In this document: positions 1-55,562 of the stretch, piece by piece
Numbering within the stretch: the stretch's first letter is position 1
Layout of the letters: every line of letters starts with the position of its first letter
Source: Eledone cirrhosa
Taxonomy: Eukaryota
Assembly (NCBI GenBank): GCA_964016885.1
Contig: OZ024749.1
Span: forward strand, 18,104,001 to 18,168,000
DNA: 64,000 nucleotides
Direction: 5' to 3'
Notes under the pieces: generated by a model
Told to the model about the DNA's origin: nothing
The model's input: the letters and a program-made list of their open reading frames with translations, nothing else
Databases searched by the model: none
Position numbers and translations under genes: made by a program

Positions 1-3000
1 ATTTCAAAAATTGATTTTTTTTCAAATATTTACTTCTGATTCCAAAAATCTAAAATAATCTATTTTTCGAAAAACATAAAATAATCTATTTTTCGAAAAA
101 CCTAAAATAATCTATTTTTCGAAAAACCTAAAATAATCTATTTTTTTATACTTTTCGAAATATTTCAAAAATTGATTTTTTTGAAATATTTACTTCTGAT
201 TCCAAAAATCTAAAATAATCTATTTTTCGAAAAACCTTAATTAATCTATTTTTTTATACTTTTCGAAATATTTCAAAAATTGATTTTTTTGAAATATTTA
301 CTTCTGATTTAAAAAACCTAAAATAATCTATTTTTTTATACTTTTCGAAATATTTCAAAAATTGATTTTTTTGAAATATTTACTTCTGATTCCAAAAATC
401 TAAAATAATCTATTTTTCGAAAAACCTTAATTAATCTATTTTTTTATACTTTTCGAAATATTTCAAAAATTGATTTTTTTTGAAATATTTACTTCTGATT
501 CCAAAAATCTAAAATAATCTATTTTTCGAAAAACCTAAAATAATCTATTTTTTTGTACTTTTCGAAATATTTCAAAAATTGATTTTTTTTGAAATATTTA
601 CTTCTGATTTCAAAAACCTAAAATAATCTATTTTTCGAAAAACCTAAAATAATCTATTTTTCGAAAAACCTTAATTAATATATTTTTTTATACTTTTCGA
701 AATATTTCAAAAATTGATTTTTTTGAAATATTTACTTCTGATTTCAAAAACCTGAAATAATCTATTTTTCGAAAAACCTAAAATAATCTAATTTTTTATA
801 CTTTTCGAAATATTTCAAAAATTGATTTTTTTGAAATATTTACTTCTGATTTCAAAAACCTAAAATATTCTTATTTTTTTATACTTTTTGAAATATTTCA
901 AAAATTGATTTTTTTGAAATATTTACTTCTGATTTCAAAAACTTAAAATAATCTATTTTTCGAAAAACCTAAAATAATCTATTTTTTTATACTTTTCGAA
1001 ATATTTCAAAAATTGATTTTTTTGAAATATTTACTTCTGATTTCAAAAACCTAAAATAATCTATTTTTTTTATACTTTTCGAAATATTTCAAAAATTGAT
1101 TTTTTTTGAAATATTTACTTCTGATTTCAAAAACCTAAAATAGTCTATTTTTCGAAAAACCTAAAATAATCTATTTTTTTTATACTTTTCGAAATATTTC
1201 AAAAATTGATTTTTTTGAAATATTTACTTCTGATTTCAAAAACCTAAAATAATCTATTTTTCGAAAAACCTAAAATAATATATTTTTTTATACTTTTCAA
1301 AATATTTCAAAAATTGATTTTTTTGAAATATTTACTTCTGATTTCAAAAACCTAAAATAATCTATTTTTTTATGCTTTTCGAAATATTTCAAAAATTGAT
1401 TTTTTTTGAAATATTTACTTCTGATTTCAAAAATCTAAAATAGTCTATTTTTCGAAAAACCTAAAATAATCTATTTTTTTTATACTTTTCGAAATATTTC
1501 AAAAATTGATTTTTTTGAAATATTTACTTCTGATTTCAAAAACCTAAAATAATCTATTTATTTATACTTTTCGAAATATTTCAAAAATTGATTTTTTTTG
1601 AAATATTTACTTCTGATTCCAAAAATCTATTTTTTGAAAAACCTAAAATAATCTATTTTTTCGACATATTTCAAAAATTGATTTTTTTGAAATATTTACT
1701 TCTAATTTCAAAAACCTAAAATGTATTTTTTTTATACTTTTCGAAATATTTCAAAAATTGATTTTTTTGAAATATTTACTTCTGATTTCAAAAACCTAAA
1801 ATAATCTATTTTTCGAAAAACCTAAAATAATATATTTTTTTATACTTTTCAAAATATTTCAAAAATTGATTTTTTTGAAATATTTACTTCTGATTTTAAA
1901 AACCTAAAATAATCTATTTTTTTATACTTTTCGAAATATTTCAAAAATTGATTTTTTTTCAAATATTTACTTCTGATTCCAAAAATCTAAAATAATCTAT
2001 TTTTCGAAAAACCTAAAATAATCTATTTTTCGAAAAACCTAAAATAATCTATTTTTTTTATACTTTTCGAAATATTTCAGAAATTGATTTTTTTTGAAAT
2101 ATTTACTTCTAATTTCGAAAACGTAAAATAATCTATTTTTCGAAAAACCTAAAATAATCTATTTTTCGAAAAACCTAAAATAATATATTTTTTTATACTT
2201 TTCAAAATATTTCAAAAATTGATTTTTTTGAAATATTTACTTCTGATTTCAAAAACCTAAAATAATCTATTTTTCGAAAAACCTAAAATAATCTATTTTT
2301 CGAAAAACCTAAAATAATCTATTTTTTTATACTTTTCGAAATATTTCAAAAATTGATTTTTTTGAAATATTTACTTCTGATTCCAAAAATCTAAAATAAT
2401 CTATTTTTCGAAAAACCTTAATTAATCTATTTTTTTATACTTTTCGAAATATTTCAAAAATTGATTTTTTTTGAAATATTTACTTCTGATTTCAAAAACC
2501 TAAAATAATCTATTTTTCGAAAAACCCAAAATAATCTATTTTTTTATACTTTTCGAAATATTTCAAAAATTGATTTTTTTGAAATATTTACTTCTGATTT
2601 AAAAAACCTAAAATAATCTATTTTTTTATACTTTTCGAAATATTTCAAAAATTGATTTTTTTGAAATATTTACTTCTGATTCCAAAAATCTAAAATAATC
2701 TATTTTTCGAAAAACCTTAATTAATCTATTTTTTTATACTTTTCGAAATATTTCAAACATTGATTTTTTTTGAAATATTTACTTCTGATTCCAAAAATCT
2801 AAAATAATCTATTTTTCGAAAAACCTAAAATAATCTATTTTTTTGTACTTTTCGAAATATTTCAAAAATTGATTTTTTTTGAAATATTTACTTCTGATTT
2901 CAAAAACCTAAAATAATCTATTTTTCGAAAAACCTAAAATAATCTATTTTTCGAAAAACCTTAATTAATATATTTTTTTATACTTTTCGAAATATTTCAA

Positions 3001-6000
3001 AAATTGATTTTTTTGAAATATTTACTTCTGATTTCAAAAACCTAAAATAATCTATTTTTTTTATACTTTTCGAAATATTTCAAAAATTGATTTTTTTGAA
3101 ATATTTACTTCTGATTTCAAAAACCTGAAATAATCTATTTTTCGAAAAACCTAAAATAATCTATTTTTTTATACTTTTCGAAATATTTCAAAAATTGATT
3201 TTTTTGAAATATTTACTTCTGATTTCAAAAACCTAAAATATTCTTATTTTTTTATACTTTTTGAAATATTTCAAAAATTGATTTTTTTGAAATATTTACT
3301 TCTGATTTCAAAAACTTAAAATAATCTATTTTTCGAAAAACCTAAAATAATCTATTTTTTTATACTTTTCGAAATATTTCAAAAATTGATTTTTTTGAAA
3401 TATTTACTTCTGATTTCAAAAACCTAAAATAATCTATTTTTTTTATACTTTTCGAAATATTTCAAAAATTGATTTTTTTGAAATATTTACTTCTGATTTC
3501 AAAAACCTAAAATAATCTATTTTTCGAAAAACCTAAAATAATCTATTTTTTTATACTATTTTCGAAATATTTCAAAAATTGATTTTTTTTGAAATATTTA
3601 CTTCTGATTTCAAAAACCTCAAAATAATCTATTTTTTTATACTTTTCGAAATATTTCAAAAATTGATTTTTTTGAAATATTTACTTCTGATTTCAAAAAC
3701 CTAAAATAATCTATTTTTCGAAAAACCCAAAATAATCTATTTTTTTATACTTTTCGAAATATTTCAAAAATTGATTTTTTTTTAAATATTTACTTCTGAT
3801 TCCAAAAATCTAAAATAATCTATTTTTCGAAAAACCTAAAATAATCTATTTTTTTATACTTTTCGAAATATTTCAAAAATTGATTTTTTTGAAATATTTA
3901 CTTCTGATTTCAAAAACCTAAAATAATCTATTTTTTTATGCTTTTCGAAATATTTCAAAAATTGATTTTTTTTGAAATATTTACTTCTGATTTCAAAAAC
4001 CTAAAATAGTCTATTTTTCGAAAAACCTAAAATAATCTATTTTTTTTATACTTTTCGAAATATTTCAAAAATTGATTTTTTTGAAATATTTACTTCTGAT
4101 TTCAAAAACCTAAAATAATCTATTTATTTATACTTTTCGAAATATTTCAAAAATTGATTTTTTTTGAAATATTTACTTCTGATTCCAAAAATCTATTTTT
4201 CGAAAAACCTAAAATAATCTATTTTTTCGACATATTTCAAAAATTGATTTTTTGGAAATATTTACTTCTAATTTCAAAAACCTAAAATAATGTATTTTTT
4301 TTATACTTTTCGAAATATTTCAAAAATTGATTTTTTTGAAATATTTACTTTTGTTTAAAAATTGATTTTTTTGAAATATTTACTTCTGATTTCAAAAACC
4401 TAAAATAATCTATTTTTTTATACTTTTCGAAATATTTCAAAAATTGATTTTTTTGAAATATTTACTTCTAATTTCAAAAACCTAAAATAATCTATTTTTC
4501 GAAAAACCTAAAATAATCTATTTTTCGAAAAACCTAAAATAATATATTTTTTTATACTTTTCAAAATATTTCAAAAATTGATTTTTTTGAAATATTTACT
4601 TCTGATTTCAAAAACCTAAAATAATCTATTTTTCGAAAAACCTAAAATAATCTATTTTTTTATACTTTTCGAAATATTTCTAAAATTGATTTTTTTGAAA
4701 TATTTACTTCTGATTTCAAAAACCTAAAATAATCTATTTTTCGAAAAACCTAAAATAATATATTTTTTTATACTTTTCAAAATATTTCAAAAATTGATTT
4801 TTTTGAAATATTTACTTCTGATTTCAAAAACCTAAAATAATCTATTTATTTATACTTTTCGAAATATTTCAAAAATTGATTTTTTTTGAAATATTTACTT
4901 CTGATTCCAAAAATCTATTTTTCGAAAAACCTAAAATAATCTATTTTTTCGACATATTTCAAAAATTGATTTTTTGGAAATATTTACTTCTAATTTCAAA
5001 AACCTAAAATAATGTATTTTTTTTATACTTTTCGAAATATTTCAAAAATTGATTTTTTTGAAATATTTACTTTTGTTTAAAAATTGATTTTTTTGAAATA
5101 TTTACTTCTGATTTCAAAAACCTAAAATAATCTATTTTTTTATACTTTTCGAAATATTTCAAAAATTGATTTTTTTGAAATATTTACTTCTAATTTCAAA
5201 AACCTAAAATAATCTATTTTTCGAAAAACCTAAAATAATCTATTTTTCGAAAAACCTAAAATAATATATTTTTTTATACTTTTCAAAATATTTCAAAAAT
5301 TGATTTTTTTGAAATATTTACTTCTGATTTCAAAAACCTAAAATAATCTATTTTTCGAAAAACCTAAAATAATCTATTTTTTTATACTTTTCGAAATATT
5401 TCTAAAATTGATTTTTTTGAAATATTTACTTCTGATTTCAAAAACCTAAAATAATCTATTTTTCGAAAAACCTAAAATAATATATTTTTTTATACTTTTC
5501 AAAATATTTCAAAAATTGATTTTTTTGAAATATTTACTTCTGATTTTAAAAACCTAAAATAATCTATTTTTTTATACTTTTCGAAATATTTCAAAAATTG
5601 ATTTTTTTTGAAATATTTACTTCTGATTTCGAAAACGTAAAATAATCTATTTTTCGAAAAACCTAAAATAATCTATTTTCTTATACTTTTCGAAATATTT
5701 CAAAAATTGATTTTTTTGAAATATTTACTTCTGATTTCAAAAACCTAAAATAATCTATTTTTCGAAAAACCTAAAATAATCTATTTTTCGAAAAACCTAA
5801 AATAATATATTTTTTTATACTTTTCAAAATATTTCAAAAATTGATTTTTTTGAAATATTTACTTCTGATTTCAAAAACCTAAAATAATCTATTTTTCGAA
5901 AAACCTAAAATAATCTATTTTTCGAAAAACCTAAAATAATCTATTTTTTTATACTTTTCGAAATATTTCAAAAATTGATTTTTTTTTAAATATTTACTTC

Positions 6001-6461
6001 TGATTCCAAAAATCTAAAATAATCTATTTTTCGAAAAACCTAAAATAATCTATTTTTTTATACTTTTTGAAATATTTCAAAAATTGATTTTTTTTGAAAT
6101 ATTTACTTCTGATTCCAAAAATCTAAAATAATCTATTTTTCGAAAAACCTAAAATAATCTATTTTTTTATACTTTTCGAAATATTTCAAAAATTGATTTT
6201 TTTGAAATATTTACTTCTGATTTCGAAAACCTAAAATAATCTATTTTTCGAAAAACCTAAAATAATCTATTTTTTTATACTTTTCGAAATATTTCAAAAA
6301 TTGATTTTTTTGAAATATTTACTTCTGATTTCAAAAACCTAAAATAATCTATTTTTTTTATACTTTTCGAAATATTTCAAAAATTGATTTTTTAAAAATA
6401 TTTACTTCTGATTTCAAAAACCTAAAATAATCTATTTTTCGAAAAACCTAAAATAATCTAT
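1..6461. repeat. AT-rich tandem satellite: ~82-bp monomer with an optional ~26-bp sub-module
   Basis: Continuous repetition of cctaaaataatctatttttttatacttttcgaaatatttcaaaaattgatttttttgaaatatttacttctgatttcaaaaa, with 0-2 interspersed cctaaaataatctatttttcgaaaaa modules. Runs off the window start and ends abruptly at about 6461. Confidence 0.97.
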
Positions 6462-19059: not shown

Positions 19060-19817
19060 GTGGGTTTTCTACAGCTGGATGCCCTTCCTAACACCAACCA
19101 CATTTACAGTGTGGGACCGTGTGTTTTTTTGTAGTGACACCTACACGATCTCATTTGTTTCGGCCTGGATGTTGTGGTACCAACATAACTTTACATTGAA
19201 AGGGGCGGTGTGGATGGGTTTTGGGGTGTGGGACGGGGGTGTATTTTGTTAGAGGTGCCTACTGTAGTAGGTTTTACTTTGTATTTAGGTAAGGCGGGTC
19301 TTCTCTATTACTGAGTACCGCCAAAGATCTCGGTCCAGTGACATTATCTTGGAGAGGTGTAAACTGAACTTTTTCCATCCCGTTCTGACTCTAGCTACTG
19401 TACTTTCAGAGCACCCTCCCCCTGCTGATTTTGTCACCCAGGTAACGGAAGCTGTCCACTATTTCTATAGAACCCTCTGCGCAATTGAAAGAGCTAGTAT
19501 TTTTGTGGGCACCAGACCACCGGCCACATGTAAAATCTATGTTCTTACCTGTGATCCCACTACATCTTTTATGCACCCATACTTTGCATTTGGGACATAA
19601 AATGGAGTTTCTACCTACGCCTTTCCTACACACTGAGCATGGCCATTTCCCGGAAGGGACCGGCGCCTTATTTTCTTTCCTACAAACTAGAATTTTAGTC
19701 TTAGCCAGGTTAATTTTAAGGCCTTTTGATTCTAGGCCGTGCCTCCATGTTTGGAATTTCTTCTCTAGCTCGGCCATTGATTCAGCTATGAGCGTTAGAT
19801 CATCTGCGTATAGGAGT

Positions 19818-19822
<5 letters not shown>
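19060..19822 (-). mobile_element. RTE-clade LINE 3' fragment
   Basis: ELLYADDLTLIAES..GLKINLAKTK..WPCSVCRKGVGRNSILCPKCKVWVHKRC..FRYLG, followed by the family 3' UTR. Confidence 0.9.
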
Positions 19823-19848
<26 letters not shown>

Positions 19849-19890
19849 CTAGCTGGCCCCGTGCCGTCAAAAATGATGACTAATTGTAGT
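19849..19890 (-). mobile_element. Helitron-like 3' terminus
   Basis: Minus strand has an imperfect GC hairpin (gtcatca-tttt-tgacggc) about 10 nt before a terminal CTAG|T, next to (TA)n. Confidence 0.55.
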
Positions 19891-20101
19891 ATTTTACATA
19901 TAAAAAGCGTACAAAACCAAGTTTTTAGTTTAATAATCTTCTATTACAACATTTTTTGTGAAAAATCTTTCTGCAACTAACATGCACTGACTGCTTGTTT
20001 CCTTCAAAATATCGTGTGTGTATGTAATATGTTTTCTAAGTGTGTCTATTTCCCCTTCACTCTCACACCCACCATATATAAATATATTTTTACATTTTCA
20101 G

Positions 20102-20520
20102 TACATATTGCTGCATATCTCGGGAATGTAGACATATTAACGATGATGGTAGATTGTGGAGCTGATATGAAAGTTGTGGATTGTGAAGGTGACACCCCAC
20201 TACACTGGGCATGTAGTAGTGGGGTAAAGATGCTATTGTCACTGTCAACAGTGGATGTGAATGTTGTGAATGATAATGATAACACCCCACTACATCTGGC
20301 CTGTAGATAAAGGCTGTGAAAATGTTGTTGTCACAGTCAACAATAGATGTGAATGTTGTGAATGTTGATGGTGACACCCCACTACATCGGGCCTGTAGTA
20401 GTGGGAAGAAGCAACAGAGTGTGTGAAAATATTGTTAGAAATGTCGACAATAGATGTGAATGTGGTGGCCAACGATAGACATTACTCTAAAATAGTGGAG
20501 TTGTCACATGTCAGCCCTGT
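20102..20520 (+). pseudogene. Ankyrin-repeat exon (about 4 repeats), disrupted
   Basis: Acceptor ttttcAG at 20100-20101; HIAAYLG..GDTPLHWAC..DNTPLHLAC..GDTPLHRAC; stop at 20308-20310 and frameshifts between repeats. Confidence 0.88.
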
Positions 20521-21411
20521 GATGTATATAGGCTAGAAATGAAGTCTATGTCCAGAGTGTTTATAATGTAGATACGATAGTTACTATAGTTTCTCACACA
20601 TGAAATAGTAGGATATGTTGTTGGTGACAGAGCTGTAGGAGAAAAAGTTGAACAGTAAGTTAACAATGATCTGGAATATCAACATTTGTTTCATCGTTAT
20701 GTTGTCTTTTTAATAATGTAACTTAATAAATATACTTACTGATGTAATCATCATTATTATTATTGTTAGTTGTGGTGGAGCTGTTTCCACAGTACACTCT
20801 GTAAAATGCTGACAACTTCAAATCAATAACACAAGATCAATGTAAAGATCTCGGCTCTCCTATCACTGCAAACTAACCCCTTTACCACATTTCACATGGA
20901 TTACAATATTTATTAATATAACTGTTTCTACTTTAGGAACAAGGCCAGCAATTATCCAGTGCATTACTGGTACTTTATTTTATCAACCTCGGCGGGATTT
21001 GAACTCAGATCGTAAAGGGACGTAACTATGCTGGAAAGAACTATTTTTAATATAATATCATTAAACGAAGTAAATTGAAGATGACCAACAAACAAGGTGT
21101 AGACATCATGAATGAAAATAAATCCCTGTCTCGTATGAATCACTATAGGGATCACTGCAAGTACATCCCAAATTCTCTAAACAACAACATATCCTACTAT
21201 TTCATGTGTGAGAAACTATAGTAACTATCGTATCTACATTATAAACACTCTGGACATAGACTTCATTTCTAGCCTATATACATCTCTTAATTATATATAC
21301 ATGTGTAGATCTTTTTTATATACACACACACATGGAATAGGAAAACAGAAAGAAAATATATTTTATTTATCTCCTTAACAAGTGTGATATACTTAGACAT
21401 ATCTATCTGTT

Positions 21412-21875
21412 TACCTATTGTATTGTATGGATGGACAGACAGAACATAATTGCTATGGTGACATCCATAGATGAGGTGTGTGTAATAAAACTGTTCACTG
21501 TTCAAAAATAGAAGATTGCCAGGAAAATCATGTCTGTCATCTATGTACAGAACCCAAGAACTATTTTCAAAATAGATAGATTCAATGTGGTAAATGCCAT
21601 GTTTCTGTCTGCCTTCAATGTGCCATAAACTTTCCTAAGATCTCAGGTCAAAAAAAGAGACACCATATTTCTATGATGGATGGACACTGGGAAAAGGTGC
21701 AGCTACCAAATTAGTCCTTTCAGTCACTGGCCTGTGTGTCTTCCTATACCATTGTTGTTGAACAACAACACAGACCAACGACCGTGTCTTCCCCTACCAT
21801 TCCTGTTGAAAAACATCAACAACAACAACAAAAATCGACCATCAATAAAGAAGTTGCGGAAGTTCGACTACTGAT
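21412..21875 (+). pseudogene. Cys/His-rich coding-like segment plus Q/T-rich linker of the same gene
   Basis: One frame reads ..HNCYGDIHR*GVCNKTVHCSKIEDCQENHVCHLC..*IQCGKCHVSVCLQCA..HHISM..*SFQSLAC..QQQQQKSTINKE; stops at 21472, 21577 and 21712. Exon borders uncertain. Confidence 0.55.
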
Positions 21876-21894
21876 TTCTGCTTTAAGCCAAGAA

Positions 21895-22180
21895 ATAGCA
21901 GGAAAACAGTACAGACACCATGACTTTCAGAAACATCTTTTCATACTCAGAGTTACTGAAGCATGGAACCAACTACCTGCATCAGTTGTTAGCTGTCAGG
22001 AACCAACTACCTGCATCCTTTAACACCTCCATCCTTCCTAAAATGCGCCAACACTACACCTCCATACATTCTCACCTCCATACATGCATGTGTGTGTGTA
22101 TATCATGACTCAATCACTGATATTTGTACATTACTCTATGCACCTGAGCATTGTACACAATAATTTTCATTATTATTATT
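21895..22180 (+). mobile_element. 3' end of a CR1/L2-group LINE
   Basis: KHLFILRVTEAWNQLPASVV resembles the C-terminal FF..RV...WN.LP..VV motif of these LINEs; ends in (TAT)n. Confidence 0.6.
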
Positions 22181-22552
22181 GATTATGGATTGGCAGTATC
22201 AGTAGAGCGTCACACACCATGCTTTGCAGCATAGAGTTATGGCCATGAACGTTCTGAGTTCAAATCCCACCTTTTATTATAAATCATCAGCACTGTTGAT
22301 TTAATCATGGCACCAGCACCAGGGATGTTGTCATGTCTTTGAAACCACTACAGAACCCTCTCTATCCTTTGTTTGGAAAGTCCTTCCTATTACCAACCAC
22401 ATTACAGAGTGTACTGGTTGTATTTTATCATGTCACCAATACTAGAGAGGTTGTTATACCCTTCACACATAATCTCTGTAAACTTGTATACAATGTAATA
22501 TTGGGTGTAAATTAATGTTGTTGGTGGGTTGTATCTTTATTTTCTTTTACAG

Positions 22553-22699
22553 AGCTGTATGTCCCCCATGTAAGACTAATGAAGCCACCATAACATCCAA
22601 TCCATGTCAACATAAAGTTGCATGTGAAAAATGTTGTTCCTCAAGTGAACAATGTACCCAGTGTGGAATGACTGTATGTACGGTGAATGGATTTAGTCA
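22553..22699 (+). CDS. RING-HC (C3HC4) finger exon
   Basis: ttttacAG acceptor and GTAATT donor; open frame CPPC..NPCQHKVACEKC..CTQC with Mind-bomb/IAP-like spacing. Confidence 0.82.
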
Positions 22700-23144
22700 G
22701 TAATTATTTGATAATCTGTCTGTATATTTCCATTCATGACTTAATGGTTAGTGTGTTTGTCTCATGAACATATTGTATCTTTGAGCAAGACACTTTATTT
22801 CATGTTACTTCAGTCTACTCAGATGGGAAAATGAGTTATATTTGTAATTCAAAAGGCCAGCTTTGTTTCATACTTTGTTATGCTGAATCTCCCTGAGAAT
22901 TATAATAATGGTGACTGTTATTGTTGCTGTAATTCAATGGTCCAGCTATATCTCATACACTATATCACTGAATCTCCCTTAGAATCACGTTAAGAGAACA
23001 TATGTCTGTGGAATACTCAGCCACTCTCACTATAATACAAGATGGACTGTACCTGTAATTAAAAGGATCAGCTTTGTCACACACTGTGCCATACTGAATC
23101 TCCCTGAGAGTTACGCTATGGGTGTACATGTCTCTCATTGTTAG

Positions 23145-23188
23145 AACTGACAGATGTCTAAAAGATGTCTACTTCCTCAGATTTTCAG
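23145..23188 (+). CDS. Putative short linker exon (44 nt, or an 8-nt variant from 23181)
   Basis: AG acceptors at 23143-23144 and 23179-23180, donor GTAACT at 23189. Either form converts phase 2 to phase 1 without a stop. Confidence 0.4.
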
Positions 23189-23744
23189 GTAACTGGCTTC
23201 TCCCGCTACTGATGTCCATTGTATTGATAGAGAGGTCAGCAAAGATTTGAGAAACTAGGATTTATTTATATATGGGGTCTGTAGGAGATAATTTATAATG
23301 TTGGGGTCATTTCATGGATCCCTTTGTATTAATGTCAAGATGACTTGTTAATGGTAGCTAATGAGGATTTGTGTAAGTGTCTGTTATCACTTTCCTTCTC
23401 ACCTGTATAGAATAATCAGTGCCCACATGGAGGACATGTGACATGTAAATATTTGTAAATATTACATGAATCGGATGACATTCTGGTGAACACAGATGTG
23501 GTCAGTTTAAACTAAAGATTACCAACATCGACCTTTCTCAAGGAAAGCAGGTGTATCTACTCCTATTTAATGTAGGCTATCATGAATGGCTAGGTATTTG
23601 ATAACCAGCTTGGCTGATATTAGAATTAAGAAGAAAATAAACAGAATGTTTGTTAGTGATTTGCTATATTGTAGATTTGGCATAAATGAAAGACAAAGCT
23701 ATGAGAAAAACAAATGGAAAGTGAAATGAGATAATTACAATAAT

Positions 23745-23931
23745 TGTTTCTACTTTTGGCACAAGGCCAGCAATTACTCAGTGCATTACTGGTACTTTAT
23801 TTTATCGACCCCGTAAGGATGAAAGGCAAAGTTAACCTCAGCGGGATTTGAACTCAGAATGGCAAGGGCCGTAACTATATGCGTCGAAGCATGGCGTCCG
23901 ACCTTCTACCGATACTGCCAATCCACCGCCC
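23745..23931 (-). mobile_element. Full-length tRNA-derived SINE (family A) with TSD
   Basis: Minus-strand head ggcggtggattggcagtatcggtaga with B-box-like gagttcaaatccc and a conserved ctttgcctttcatccttacggggtcgataaaataaagtaccag block; TSD ttacaataat at 23735-23744 and 23932-23941. Confidence 0.9.
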
Positions 23932-24156
23932 TTACAATAATGATAGAAAATATTTATAAAGTTTAACATATTTTGTTGTGGGCCTAAATACTCAGATATG
24001 ACCTGATATAACAAGAAGAAAAAATATTGACTAAAGCCATTGTGATCACTAGTTGACTTCTGATGATAGGAATGTCTGAAAATATAAAATATAGATTATA
24101 AACAGGAATAGAAAATCTTTACAGTAAAATGAAAAAACTTGGAAATATTTTTTCAG

Positions 24157-24228
24157 GGTCTCAAAAGCTGAATGAGAAAGTCCTTCGGAAGGTAGCAAAA
24201 CAATTAGGAAGAAAATGGCTTGAAGTTG
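24157..24228 (+). CDS. Death-domain exon 1
   Basis: ttttttcAG acceptor and GTGAGT donor; 72 nt, phase 1/1; SQKLNEKVLRKVAKQLGRKWLEVG matches Death-domain helices 1-2. Confidence 0.85.
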
Positions 24229-26157
24229 GTGAGTATAAGATTACAGTATCTTGTTGATTTCTATAAAGTTTACTTTTAACTGAATTGGTAAAAATGGATA
24301 AATTAGAAGACACAATATAACTAATATTGTCAAAACAGGGAATAAAAATCTGTTGTTAATGGGAATGTTTTTGTTTGTTTTTATTGAAACATATTAAATT
24401 TACAGATAGGTTGTTATTGTTATTTAGTCTCGGTTCTGCCATGATCAGCAGATTTATAATGGAGGGCATTCCAGGTGTGACCATCCTACATTATTTCTAT
24501 GTTCAGAGAACCCACAATCACATTATCCAACATGTCCTTTTAAGGTGTTAGGGTACTCAATGTAAAGAATGAGTACACAAGAGGTTTAGTAGAACCATAA
24601 GCAGGATAACAGAAAAGGAAGACTTTGTATAGAGTAAATATGAATGAGATGGTTGGGTCATGTGTTGAGGAAGGACAAAAGGGACTGCGTGAGAGGAGTG
24701 AGGAAAATGAATGTGGAAGGAAATAGAGGAAGAGGAAAACCAAGAAAGACATAGCTAAAAATGATGGATGAGGAAATGAAAGCCAGGGATGAGGAAGAGA
24801 TGCTGATGATAGGGAAAAGTAGAGAAGCTTGTCATGTCCCTGCCCTGTAAGGCTAACCCTGTTGTCATCTAGAGAGTTATATTATAGATGTGTATATTTA
24901 CAGGGCTGCTTTGTTCTTTGAGAACATTTACATGAATTTAGTAAAAATTACATAAGTCATGAAAGAAGAGCTTTATTTGAAAAAACTTTGCCATGAATAA
25001 TGTTGAGTCTTCTTGACAAATCTTCTCAATGAATCAGCCATTAGTATCGATGACTCCTTCAATACAAGGTCTGAAATGTTAACATGCCTGAATCAGTTGA
25101 TTTTTATTTATTTTGTACATTGTGCTAGTTATGGCAGACTTCAGGGTTTTTATAATGTTATGGAGGTGTTGATTGACTTCCCTCTTGACTACTCTCCATA
25201 TGTAGTAGTCTAACAGATTCAGGTCTGAAGAGCTAAGAGGCCATATGTTTAGGCTGGTGTGATCATAGAGATTGTTACTCTTTCATTCTTTAGTCATCTT
25301 GGTCTTATGAGATGGTGTAGTCTTATTGTTAAGGTTATGGTTTTCCTTTGTCCACACTTCTCTATCAAAGGATTCCTTCTCTGGAAAAAGATTTTATAAT
25401 CACAACCATCTGTCCATTTGTTTTCTGATGAGAATAAAGTTAATCTAGCTTGTATGTCTACCTGATCAAATGAGTGGCTGATATCTTGAAGTTAGTGTTG
25501 CAAATGGCTGTCATTTACATTACAGAATTGTAGGAGTCTTGATCCCTCAAGCCATACCTCTAGCCATCATGTACTCCAAAAAGAGCCATCTTGATGCTAC
25601 TCAACATGTCCATTAAATTTAGCAGCAAGGATGAGGAAATGTTTGTCACTTGTCATTGATGTCTTGGTACATTTTAGGCAGAATCATGACTATTTCAGAC
25701 ACTGATCTTGTGATGTTAATGAGGGGTCTTCAATCTCATCCTTTAAACCATTACTATGGATGACATGTTGTGAATGTTGGTTATCAATGTTGGATCTTTA
25801 AATTCTGAACCAGTTCTGACAATACAAAAGCTTCTTCCATTATGTCTATTTTCTTTAATCTTGTTCTTTCTTCTCCTCACTCCAACTTCTTTATTTTTGT
25901 TGGTATCCTTGGAAAATACAACAATGTTTTAGAATTTTTATGTTAATTATTTCTATTACCCTACAGCTAGTTACTTGTTATTTACTTCTATTTACTTGTT
26001 ATTTACTTCTATTACCCTACAGCTAGTTACTTGTAATTTTAGAATTTTTATGTTAATTATTTCTATTACCCTACAGCTAGTTACTTGTTATAAAATATGT
26101 ATACCTATTTAATGTTGTTGTTATAGTATTGGTTTCTTATTGTTTTATATTTTACAG

Positions 26158-26360
26158 GTATTAAATTAGAAGTTCCAGCTTATATACTGAACAACATTGA
26201 ATATAACTATAGTGATATTGACAAACATGCTTTTCAAATGTTACTCAAATGGTGTGAAATTTGTAAACCAGAAAAATGCACCATAGCCACTCTGAAAGAA
26301 GCTTTAGAGATGACAGAATGTTTTGAGGTTCTTCGTTGTCAATATTTAAAGGAAAACTAG
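26158..26360 (+). CDS. Death-domain exon 2 (terminal coding exon)
   Basis: ttttacAG acceptor, phase 1; IKLEVPAYILNNIEYNYSDIDKHAFQMLLKWCEICKPEKCTIATLKEALEMTECFEVLRCQYLKEN*, open to TAG 26358-26360. Confidence 0.88.
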
Positions 26361-40003: not shown

Positions 40004-41180
<1,177 letters not shown>

Positions 41181-54519: not shown

Positions 54520-54697
54520 CTGCTGTATCGGTAGAGAGTCGGACACCATGCTTTCCAGCATAGTTACGTCCCTTTACAGTCTGAGTTCAAATCCCGCCGA
54601 GGTTTACTTTGCCTTTCATCCTTACGGGGTCGATAAAATAAAGTACCAGTAATACACTAGGTAATTTGCTGGCCTTGTGCCTAAAGTAGAAACAATT
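54520..54697 (+). mobile_element. SINE family A copy
   Basis: gagttcaaatcccgccgagg..gcctttcatccttacggggtcgataaaataaagtaccag. Confidence 0.85.
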
Positions 54698-54734
54698 ATA
54701 ACTTTAATTAATCTAATTATATCTCTTGTGTAAC

Positions 54735-54779
<45 letters not shown>

Positions 54780-55562
54780 ATTTTCCGACATCAGACTTAC
54801 ACTGTCATATCTATTCTTACTTTACAATTGTGTCTACTAAGAGTTCCATTACAATCTGTAGTAGTAAAACTACTATTTCACCAGAACATCTGCTATCAGT
54901 CATTTATAGACAATATATATATATTTTATCAACCTGATATATATATATATTTCCTATCAAATCTCTGGCTAAAGACATAAAGTCAGCCTCACTACTTCAT
55001 TCTGACAAGATATCAATTTATGACTAAAGATGAAGAAGATACACCAACTTTAATGTGAAATAAAGCTGATAACATCTTTGAAACTTCTAATTTCATAACA
55101 AAAAGATTATTTCTTTGGTTGTTTAGTAAAAACTAACAACACAACACATTGATTATATCTGAAGGAGGTAAGTTGACAAATATTTACTTAATGTCTATAT
55201 TAATGTGTGTAAATAATATAATTATGTGAACCTTAAACTATCCAGTAATTAATTCCACTGTTACAAGTGATATAAAATATATTGTTGTCATGACACTTTA
55301 TTATTTAAAATACCTCCGTCTATTTAATTATCTTGTTCACTACCTTACATTATAAAATATATTTTATATTTAGCTGTACCTTGTTATTGCTTTAAGTAAA
55401 TTAAAGATATATTTATTATTTAAAATACCTCCGTCTATTTAATTTATGTGGTTCACTACCTTACATTATAAAATATATTTTATATTTAGCTGTATATTGT
55501 TGTTTCAGGGAAGTTTTGTTCGTTTTAGTCTAAATCTATTTTGATTTAATTTACTTCATCTA

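What the first reader, a model, noticed from the sequence alone, without database searches (positions are those of the whole stretch)
20102..26360. Hidden multi-exon ankyrin - Cys/His-rich - RING - Death-domain gene missed by the ORF track
Seen: same-strand exons with canonical splice sites encoding ankyrin repeats (20102-20520), a RING-HC finger (22553-22699) and a Death domain over two phase-compatible exons (24157-24228, 26158-26360), plus a Cys/His-rich frame with uncertain borders (21412-21875). Established: ankyrin+RING is the Mind-bomb-type E3 ligase layout, and Death domains mediate immune/apoptotic adaptor binding; canonical Mind bomb has no Death domain. Inference: a lineage-specific, exon-shuffled ubiquitin ligase/adaptor family. 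The 5' half is broken while RING and Death exons remain open, so either pseudogenisation is recent or a shorter RING-Death product persists.
Basis: partly seen in the sequence, partly recalled or inferred. Interest (0 to 1): 0.72.

Follow-up and report, generated by a model that had tools for sequence, protein, structure and literature searches.

The report
Broken copy of octopus ankyrin-RING-death gene
This is a broken, rearranged copy of an octopus gene family that joins ankyrin repeats, a zinc finger and a death domain; the family was likely stitched together from two older genes, and its intact copies change their predicted binding surfaces so fast that they likely act as immune sensors or adaptors, but this copy is likely dead and its 'Cys/His exon' is likely a retrotransposon remnant.

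Summary
The ankyrin, RING and two death-domain exons are real; two borders are wrong (ankyrin exon ends 20654, RING donor 22695). The Cys/His frame is not an exon: it is part of a dispersed, likely LINE-derived repeat in the intron and is absent from an intronless retrocopy that joins Ank-RING-Death. The window copy is likely a pseudogene: four frame-changing indels in the ankyrin exon, the upstream exon 62 kb away on the other strand, no in-frame ATG before the RING. The family is real: 27 death-exon loci outside the retrocopy array, 8 with an open frame from the first ankyrin exon to the stop, and Ank-RING-Death proteins in three Octopus species, auto-named 'MIB2-like'. Intron positions and trees point to MIB2's ankyrin-RING1 part fused to the two-exon death domain of a RIPK1-like adaptor gene; the terminal RING (the catalytic one in MIB1) is gone, so ligase activity is doubtful. 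Exons differ far more than introns; ankyrin and death-domain codons look positively selected. Expression is untested. This scan described the family before on other DNA of this genome; five literature searches found no description.

The parts
19822..20009 (+). Left limit of homology to paralogous loci (intron before the second ankyrin exon); likely inversion breakpoint, next to a LINE fragment at 19365-19823
   Evidence: blastn against paralogs; the matching upstream unit lies on the - strand at G000:C9:18191114-18198789
20102..20654 (+). Decayed ankyrin exon (five repeats in intact paralogs, 554 nt): deletions of 34, 15, 10, 1, 30 and 3 nt and a net 92-nt insertion; four of the seven change the frame
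   Evidence: Pfam; alignment to three intact paralogs; donor
20521..20623 (-). Inverted copy of window 21182-21284 inserted in the ankyrin exon, with in-frame stops
   Evidence: sequence
21037..21904 (+). Intronic dispersed repeat holding the 'Cys/His frame'; likely the ORF1 zinc-finger/coiled-coil part of an old LINE
   Evidence: 22 copies at 90-100% beside family RING exons and 18 scored copies at 76-84% elsewhere; 1.5-1.7 kb shared unit among 10 fetched copies; endonuclease frame next to it in one copy, Exo_endo_phos_2 E 1e-8
22553..22695 (+). RING exon (C3HC4_3 type, phase 2 to phase 1), open; donor GTCAGT where paralogs have GTAAGT; in-frame ATG at 22668 would start a 100-residue death-domain-only frame
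24157..24228 (+). Death domain exon 1 (72 nt, phase 1 to 1), open
   Evidence: joined to RING and exon 2 in the retrocopy
26158..26360 (+). Death domain exon 2 with stop codon, open; last coding exon

Best explanation
The window holds the 3' part of a likely dead copy of an octopod multigene family whose intact members encode ankyrin repeats, one RING finger and a C-terminal death domain; the family likely arose once by fusing MIB2's ankyrin-RING1 exons to the two-exon death domain of a RIPK1-like adaptor gene, and its intact members likely work as fast-diversifying intracellular sensors or adaptors rather than as Mind-bomb-type ligases. Shown: exons, splice phases, the lesions, the paralogs, the spliced order in a retrocopy, matching intron positions in both candidate parents, exon divergence above intron divergence. 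Inferred: that the split from the upstream exon is a real inversion; that the ankyrin face binds variable (likely pathogen) ligands; that the death domain passes the signal to a death-domain adaptor by like-with-like binding; that the RING is a non-catalytic spacer; that gene conversion keeps introns alike while selection keeps exons apart. The Cys/His frame is a passenger: a repeat that sat in the intron before the family spread.
For: Family: 35 matches to death exon 2, 27 outside one retrocopy array, clustered on C18 and C27; RING exons lie upstream on the same strand at most of them. Splicing: an intronless, poly(A)-flanked copy at C1:208.684-208.690 Mb joins ankyrin, RING and both death exons with no Cys/His part. 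Intact members: 9 of 11 models from 9 loci read open from the first ankyrin exon to the stop; a tenth failed on my search anchor and its exons are each open; the eleventh (C12) is broken. Other species: 9 of 35 scanned hits have Ank, zf-C3HC4_3 and Death in that order, one more; all 10 are Octopus vulgaris, sinensis or bimaculoides proteins. Origin: the ankyrin and RING parts of one such protein map best on this genome's MIB2-type gene on C24; that gene has a phase-2 intron before RING1 and a phase-1 intron at the same codon after it; a single death-domain gene at C24:15.36 Mb has the same two exons, phases 1/1. Trees: family plus Octopus death domains form one branch (95/99) next to the RIPK1-like rows; MIB2 RING1 falls with the family RINGs, apart from MIB2's last RING, MIB1 and IAP RINGs (95/85). 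Diversification: death exons of 18 copies, dN 0.19 and dS 0.18 against 0.03 in flanking intron; positions 1 and 2 differ more than four-fold sites (0.18, 0.16 vs 0.08); site model M2a over M1a, LRT 33.6, 23% of sites at omega 3.2; ankyrin exon of six C27 copies, positions 1+2 0.092, four-fold sites 0.000. This copy: seven indels in the ankyrin exon, upstream unit on the other strand, six private death-domain codons, all amino-acid changing.
Against: No RNA data: the three runs found behaved as genomic DNA, so neither silence of this copy nor expression of intact copies in this genome is shown. No start codon upstream of the first ankyrin exon was found; the one upstream exon seen in a retrocopy closes that frame with a stop. 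Overall omega is 1.00, which neutral decay also gives, and recombination among copies (p 0.0005) inflates the site test; the tree-free count gives more variants per synonymous than per non-synonymous site (0.79 vs 0.58, p 0.075). Synonymous sites in the death exons also exceed the intron, so part of the excess is not amino-acid selection. Trees rest on 92 and 49 columns; the branch joining the RIPK1-like rows to the family is weak (84/90) and long branches meet there. This genome's subfamily lacks the MIB-specific last ankyrin segment seen in the Octopus proteins. The immune role has no direct evidence. The LINE reading of the Cys/His frame has no PHD hit in Pfam or the Atlas. The inversion could be an assembly error.
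Confidence: 0.7

Rival explanations
1. This copy still makes a short product: a RING-Death protein from an unknown first exon, or a 100-residue death-domain-only protein from the ATG at 22668, which would act as a decoy on death-domain complexes.
For: RING and both death exons are open and in phase; no indel in 418 coding bases against about 2.7 expected (P 0.065 for none at all); several copies with no ankyrin exon within 20 kb keep an open death domain; short death-only proteins are annotated in Octopus.
Against: P is 0.16 for no frameshifting indel; no in-frame ATG before the RING; weakened RING donor; all six private codons change the amino acid, one in the conserved W-F/Y pair.
Confidence: 0.12
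2. The family is an active ubiquitin ligase family: the death domain replaces MIB2's MZM/REP substrate module, docks on death-domain complexes, and the RING ubiquitinates them, as MIB2 does to RIPK1.
For: Eight zinc ligands kept in 13 of 23 RING exons and in Octopus proteins, where Pfam scores pass the cut-off; human MIB2 binds RIPK1 through MZM and ubiquitinates it (PMC5912950, passages); death-domain oligomers could supply the dimerisation that MIB1's coiled coil gives (inference).
Against: The RING kept is RING1; MIB1 ANK-RING1-2 has no activity in vitro; RING exons of all six C27 loci carry in-frame internal duplications or a deletion while ankyrin and death exons stay open.
Confidence: 0.2
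3. The whole subfamily in this genome is mostly neutral cargo of segmental duplication inside zinc-finger gene clusters; exon variety is old variation reshuffled by gene conversion, with no current function.
For: Omega 1.00 overall; many truncated copies, retrocopies and tandem arrays; C2H2 zinc-finger frames beside several copies; no start codon found.
Against: Eight loci keep an open frame of 300-380 codons through in-frame indels only; ankyrin exon changes in C27 copies are all at positions 1 and 2 with none at four-fold sites; the architecture is kept in three Octopus species.
Confidence: 0.1

Closest known systems
Mind bomb 2 (MIB2) / MIB1 E3 ligases
   Same: Ankyrin repeats followed by a C3HC4_3 RING; intron phases on both sides of RING1 match the MIB2-type gene of this genome; RING groups with MIB2 RING1.
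   Different: No MZM or REP module found at any family locus (MIB_HERC2 hits lie elsewhere; none in the Octopus proteins); no coiled-coil plus terminal RING; a death domain ends the protein; many fast-changing copies instead of one.
Octopus RefSeq/GenBank 'E3 ubiquitin-protein ligase MIB2-like / MIB1-like / ankyrin-3-like' models (e.g. XP_029652081.1, XP_036355694.1, CAI9744078.1, XP_014780589.1)
   Same: Same domain order, related death domain (one branch, 95/99), RING ending at the same G-F codon.
   Different: Only about 40-50% identical; they keep MIB's last ankyrin segment and often a repeat linker before the death domain, which this genome's subfamily lacks. These are automatic names, not a described family.
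RIPK1-like death-domain adaptor of octopods (XP_014771875.1; gene at G000:C24:15.36 Mb)
   Same: Closest outside death domain (about 43-45% identity), same two exons and phases.
   Different: Long low-complexity N-terminus, no ankyrin or RING. A RHIM-like stretch is my reading by eye; Pfam gives no RHIM hit.
Type I plant resistance-gene clusters (RGC2, Pi2/9)
   Same: Copy-number variation, sequence exchange between paralogs and positive selection (PMC3492116, passages).
   Different: Unrelated domains; function shown there, none here.
PHD-bearing ORF1 of CR1/L2 LINEs (for the Cys/His frame)
   Same: Cys-rich finger, then a coiled-coil-like stretch, then an endonuclease frame in one genomic copy; such ORF1 types are described in PMC4120745 (passages).
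   Different: No PHD hit in Pfam or the Atlas; clade not determined.

Membership tests
Mind bomb E3 ligases | N-terminal MZM (MIB_HERC2-ZZ-MIB_HERC2) and REP substrate module | tested here: not met
   PF06701 matches lie on C24, C4, C14, C28:79/94 Mb, none at a family locus; absent from the 35 proteins
Mind bomb E3 ligases | Ankyrin repeats followed by RING1 | tested here: met
Mind bomb E3 ligases | Coiled coil plus terminal catalytic RING | tested here: not met
   Death exons follow RING1 directly in the retrocopy and the models; MIB2's last RING lies on another branch
Mind bomb E3 ligases | Ubiquitin transfer activity | not testable with these tools
   needs an assay
Death domain superfamily | Sequence profile match | tested here: met
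   13 of 20 second exons hit PF00531; full Octopus domains pass the cut-off; Atlas 27 of 30; the window's second exon alone misses
Death domain superfamily | Six-helix fold | tested here: inconclusive
Octopod Ank-RING-Death family ('MIB2-like' models) | Domain order, shared death-domain branch, shared exon borders | tested here: met
Functional gene (this copy) | Open frame with start codon across the ankyrin exon | tested here: not met
Functional gene (this copy) | Transcription and splicing | not testable with these tools
   no RNA run was listed
LINE ORF1 remnant (Cys/His frame) | Dispersed high-copy repeat | tested here: met
   614 candidates, 40 scored; shared 1.5-1.7 kb unit
LINE ORF1 remnant (Cys/His frame) | Followed by endonuclease/RT frame | tested here: inconclusive
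   endonuclease frame downstream on the same strand in 1 of 10 fetched copies; only that copy's frames were scanned for it
LINE ORF1 remnant (Cys/His frame) | PHD profile match | tested here: not met
   no PHD hit in Pfam for the frames; Atlas gives only scores under 0.9

The most novel reading that the evidence does not exclude
Octopods built their own diversified intracellular immune receptor from Mind bomb 2 and a RIPK1-like adaptor: ankyrin repeats as a natural, antibody-like binding repertoire, a dead RING as spacer, and a death domain that also diversifies to escape pathogen blockers or to keep paralogs on separate partners. Broken copies such as this one would serve as a reservoir of death-domain and RING variants for gene conversion into the working genes.
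Probability: 0.25. Interest if true: 0.8.

Novelty: new variant of a known kind. Interest (0 to 1): 0.5.

Why it matters
Cephalopod intracellular immune receptors are poorly known (my knowledge). A family with a traceable birth by exon shuffling, hidden under 'MIB2-like' labels, with selection on both its ankyrin face and its death domain, is a concrete candidate that infection RNA-seq and pull-downs can test. The copy in this window adds little itself: it is a decayed duplicate, useful as a record of how copies die and perhaps as a conversion donor. The result also warns that 'MIB2 expansion' counts in octopus annotation mix one true MIB2 with many proteins that lack its substrate and catalytic parts.

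Tried and rejected
Word-index protein search with death exon 2 found nothing (28 candidates); with an ankyrin exon it returned generic ankyrin proteins (best 120 of 323 listed). No RNA holder was listed; the three runs laid covered introns and repeats like genomic DNA and showed no exon joints among the rows printed. An alignment of separate death exons on the retrocopy frame misaligned and was dropped. Complex prediction of an Octopus family death domain with the RIPK1-like death domain gave no verdict (score 0.13). A structure job was not finished. PDB search with a full Octopus protein gave ankyrin repeat proteins only. I first read the Cys/His frame as a piggyBac C-terminal domain (recalled pattern); dropped when genomic copies continued into coiled-coil-like and endonuclease frames. 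RNA-editing-fed conversion as the source of exon variety: A/G pairs are 43 of 112 biallelic exon sites and 25 of 82 intron sites, no clear excess. No shared repeat at the two putative inversion ends. A second N-terminal domain for the copies without ankyrin exons: long frames upstream looked like transposon and zinc-finger frames by eye (output partly cut; not scanned with Pfam). The death domain 100 kb from MIB2 (C24:25.93 Mb) is not the donor. Literature: no paper for octopus + mind bomb + death domain or cephalopod + death domain + ankyrin + gene family expansion; some searches listed 1, 3 and 7 papers, none about this family by title or abstract start; only PMC8998645 of these was opened (passages). 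The library lacks most subscription papers, and supplementary gene lists were not searched.
Full report
Setting. The window is G000:C9:18104001-18168000 of a 3.0 Gb genome. The closest named relatives of its proteins are from Octopus, at about 40-50% identity, so I call it an octopod.

Observation. Ankyrin repeats start at 20102 (Pfam Ank_2 E 1e-14). The RING exon has all eight ligands and a weak zf-C3HC4_3 hit (E 1e-4). Both death exons have canonical borders and read open to TAG. The window's second death exon alone misses Pfam Death; 13 of 20 paralogous exons hit it, their profile finds PIDD, FADD and RIPK1 domains weakly, and the Atlas gives Death for 27 of 30 hits of the retrocopy frame. 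Two borders need correction: the ankyrin exon ends at 20654, and the RING donor is 22695; 22699 breaks the frame.

The Cys/His frame. It has three stops. A DNA search gives 614 candidates; of 40 scored, 22 are 90-100% copies beside family RING exons and 18 are 76-84% copies on other chromosomes. Ten of the latter share a unit of 1.5-1.7 kb; in one, an endonuclease frame follows on the same strand (E 1e-8). PHD-bearing ORF1s are described for CR1/L2 LINEs (PMC4120745, passages), but neither Pfam nor the Atlas calls this finger a PHD. An intronless retrocopy joins ankyrin, RING and death exons without it. It is a repeat in the intron, likely a LINE remnant, that was there before the family spread.

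The family in this genome. Death exon 2 has 35 matches, 8 in the retrocopy array and 27 elsewhere, mostly on C18 and C27. The gene plan is a first ankyrin exon, a second ankyrin exon, RING, death 1, death 2. Nine of 11 models from 9 loci are open throughout; one failed on my anchor and its exons are each open; C12 is broken. No start codon before the first ankyrin exon was found; the upstream exon seen in a second retrocopy ends that frame with a stop. Many copies have no ankyrin exon nearby.

This copy. Against three intact paralogs the ankyrin exon has deletions of 34, 15, 10, 1, 30 and 3 bases and a net insertion of 92, an inverted copy of nearby intron. Homology to paralogs ends at 19822; the unit that should precede it, with the first ankyrin exon, lies on the - strand at C9:18191-18199 kb, as one inversion of about 67 kb would give (inferred; a misassembly is not excluded). 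No in-frame ATG precedes the RING; the first is at 22668. About 19 indels in 2.9 kb of downstream intron (my count) predict 2.7 in 418 coding bases; none has P 0.065, no frameshift P 0.16. The six private death-domain codons all change the residue. So the open 3' exons need no selection to explain them.

Other species. A profile of 20 second exons found 62 proteins. Of 35 scanned, 9 have Ank, zf-C3HC4_3 and Death in order, plus 1 of 13. I looked up 30 of the 62: all 10 with the full architecture are from O. vulgaris, O. sinensis or O. bimaculoides, named MIB2-like, MIB1-like, ankyrin-3-like and the like. No squid or cuttlefish protein was among the 30; 32 were not looked up.

Origin. The genome has two Mind bomb genes. 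The ankyrin and RING parts of an O. bimaculoides member map best on the C24 gene, which has two RINGs. Its intron before RING1 is phase 2 and the one after is phase 1 at the same codon as in the family. A single gene at C24:15.36 Mb, matching Octopus 'RIPK1-like', has its death domain in two exons with the family's borders and phases. In trees, family and Octopus death domains form one branch (95/99) beside these rows (weak, 84/90), and MIB2 RING1 sides with the family RINGs (95/85) (31 and 29 rows, chosen subsets, few columns). A phase-1 join of the two parts explains the gene (inferred).

Activity. In human MIB1 only the last RING transfers ubiquitin, ANK-RING1-2 is inactive, and MIB2's second RING is the homologue of that last RING (bioRxiv 10.1101/2024.03.01.582834, abstract and passages). 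MIB2 binds RIPK1 through MZM and ubiquitinates it (PMC5912950, passages). The family has lost both MZM and the last RING. Only 13 of 23 fully aligned RING exons keep the ligand pattern, and the C27 copies break it in frame. A non-catalytic RING is the likelier reading.

Diversification. Among 18 copies open through the death domain (of 22 with both exons; 4 dropped for a stop, frameshift or lost stop), dN is 0.19, dS 0.18 and flanking intron 0.03. Peaks lie at 24197-24220 and 26188-26217. M2a beats M1a (LRT 33.6) but overall omega is 1.00 and a tree-free count does not put non-synonymous above synonymous variants; recombination is present (p 0.0005), so the test is inflated to an unknown degree. 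The ankyrin exon is clearer: six C27 copies differ at 9.2% of first and second positions and at no four-fold site. This is the pattern of exchange plus positive selection known from type I plant resistance clusters (PMC3492116, passages).

Mechanism, committed. Intact members likely bind variable ligands with the ankyrin face and signal through death-domain contacts to an adaptor such as their donor gene; ligand, partner and pathway are untested. The window copy likely does nothing, or serves as a conversion donor.

Novelty. Searches found no description of the family; subscription papers and supplementary tables were not covered. This scan reached the same family reading on other DNA of this genome (e1-8827124, e1-8877839, e1-9563818). 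I saw those notes after searches had given the family, the Octopus relatives and the exon-intron contrast, and before my origin and RING tests and the ankyrin exon test; they are not independent support. Interest 0.5: a real, apparently undescribed family, met here in a dead copy with one claimed domain removed.

Noticed in passing
window 54697-55167 (+): A copy of an exon-like repeat ending in a strong donor (GGAG|GTAAGT), 771 candidate places in the genome. A retrocopy at G000:C10:48627.6-48628.2 kb shows it spliced to the family's first ankyrin exon. It may be a shared non-coding first exon of zinc-finger cluster genes that the family borrowed.
   Followed up: partly
L060 (G000:C1:208684-208690 kb): Poly(A)-flanked retrocopy of the family, then amplified in tandem: eight death-domain units, six of them at a 325-base period.
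   Followed up: partly
L062:9118-9260 (G000:C9:18197118-18197260, - strand): The RING exon of the split-off upstream unit is about 98% identical to the window's with flanks and shares its GTCAGT donor, unlike the two units in other double loci; likely recent conversion within the locus.
   Followed up: no
L074, L082, L083, L086, L112, L116 (C27 cluster): RING exons carry 1 to 6 extra in-frame copies of a 36- or 54-base piece, which break the finger while the rest of the frame stays open.
   Followed up: partly
G000:C12:9023-9048 kb and L152 (C25:7448-7455 kb): Tandem arrays of pieces of the family's ankyrin exons (24 matches on C12). An earlier scan note treats the 24-fold array.
   Followed up: no
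C26:23560-23582 kb, C18:12626-12643 kb, C27:15047-15076 kb: Double loci with two ankyrin-RING units before one death domain. RING1 cannot splice in frame to the next unit, so the units would be alternative cassettes.
   Followed up: partly
window 40128-40712 (+): C2H2 zinc-finger frame of 195 codons; the locus sits among zinc-finger genes, as do several paralogs.
   Followed up: no
window 1-6200: AT-rich satellite, 16% G+C.
   Followed up: no
P0121 (CAI9744465.1): An Octopus vulgaris model with RING, death domain, LRRs and a second death domain; either a further shuffle or a fused gene model.
   Followed up: no
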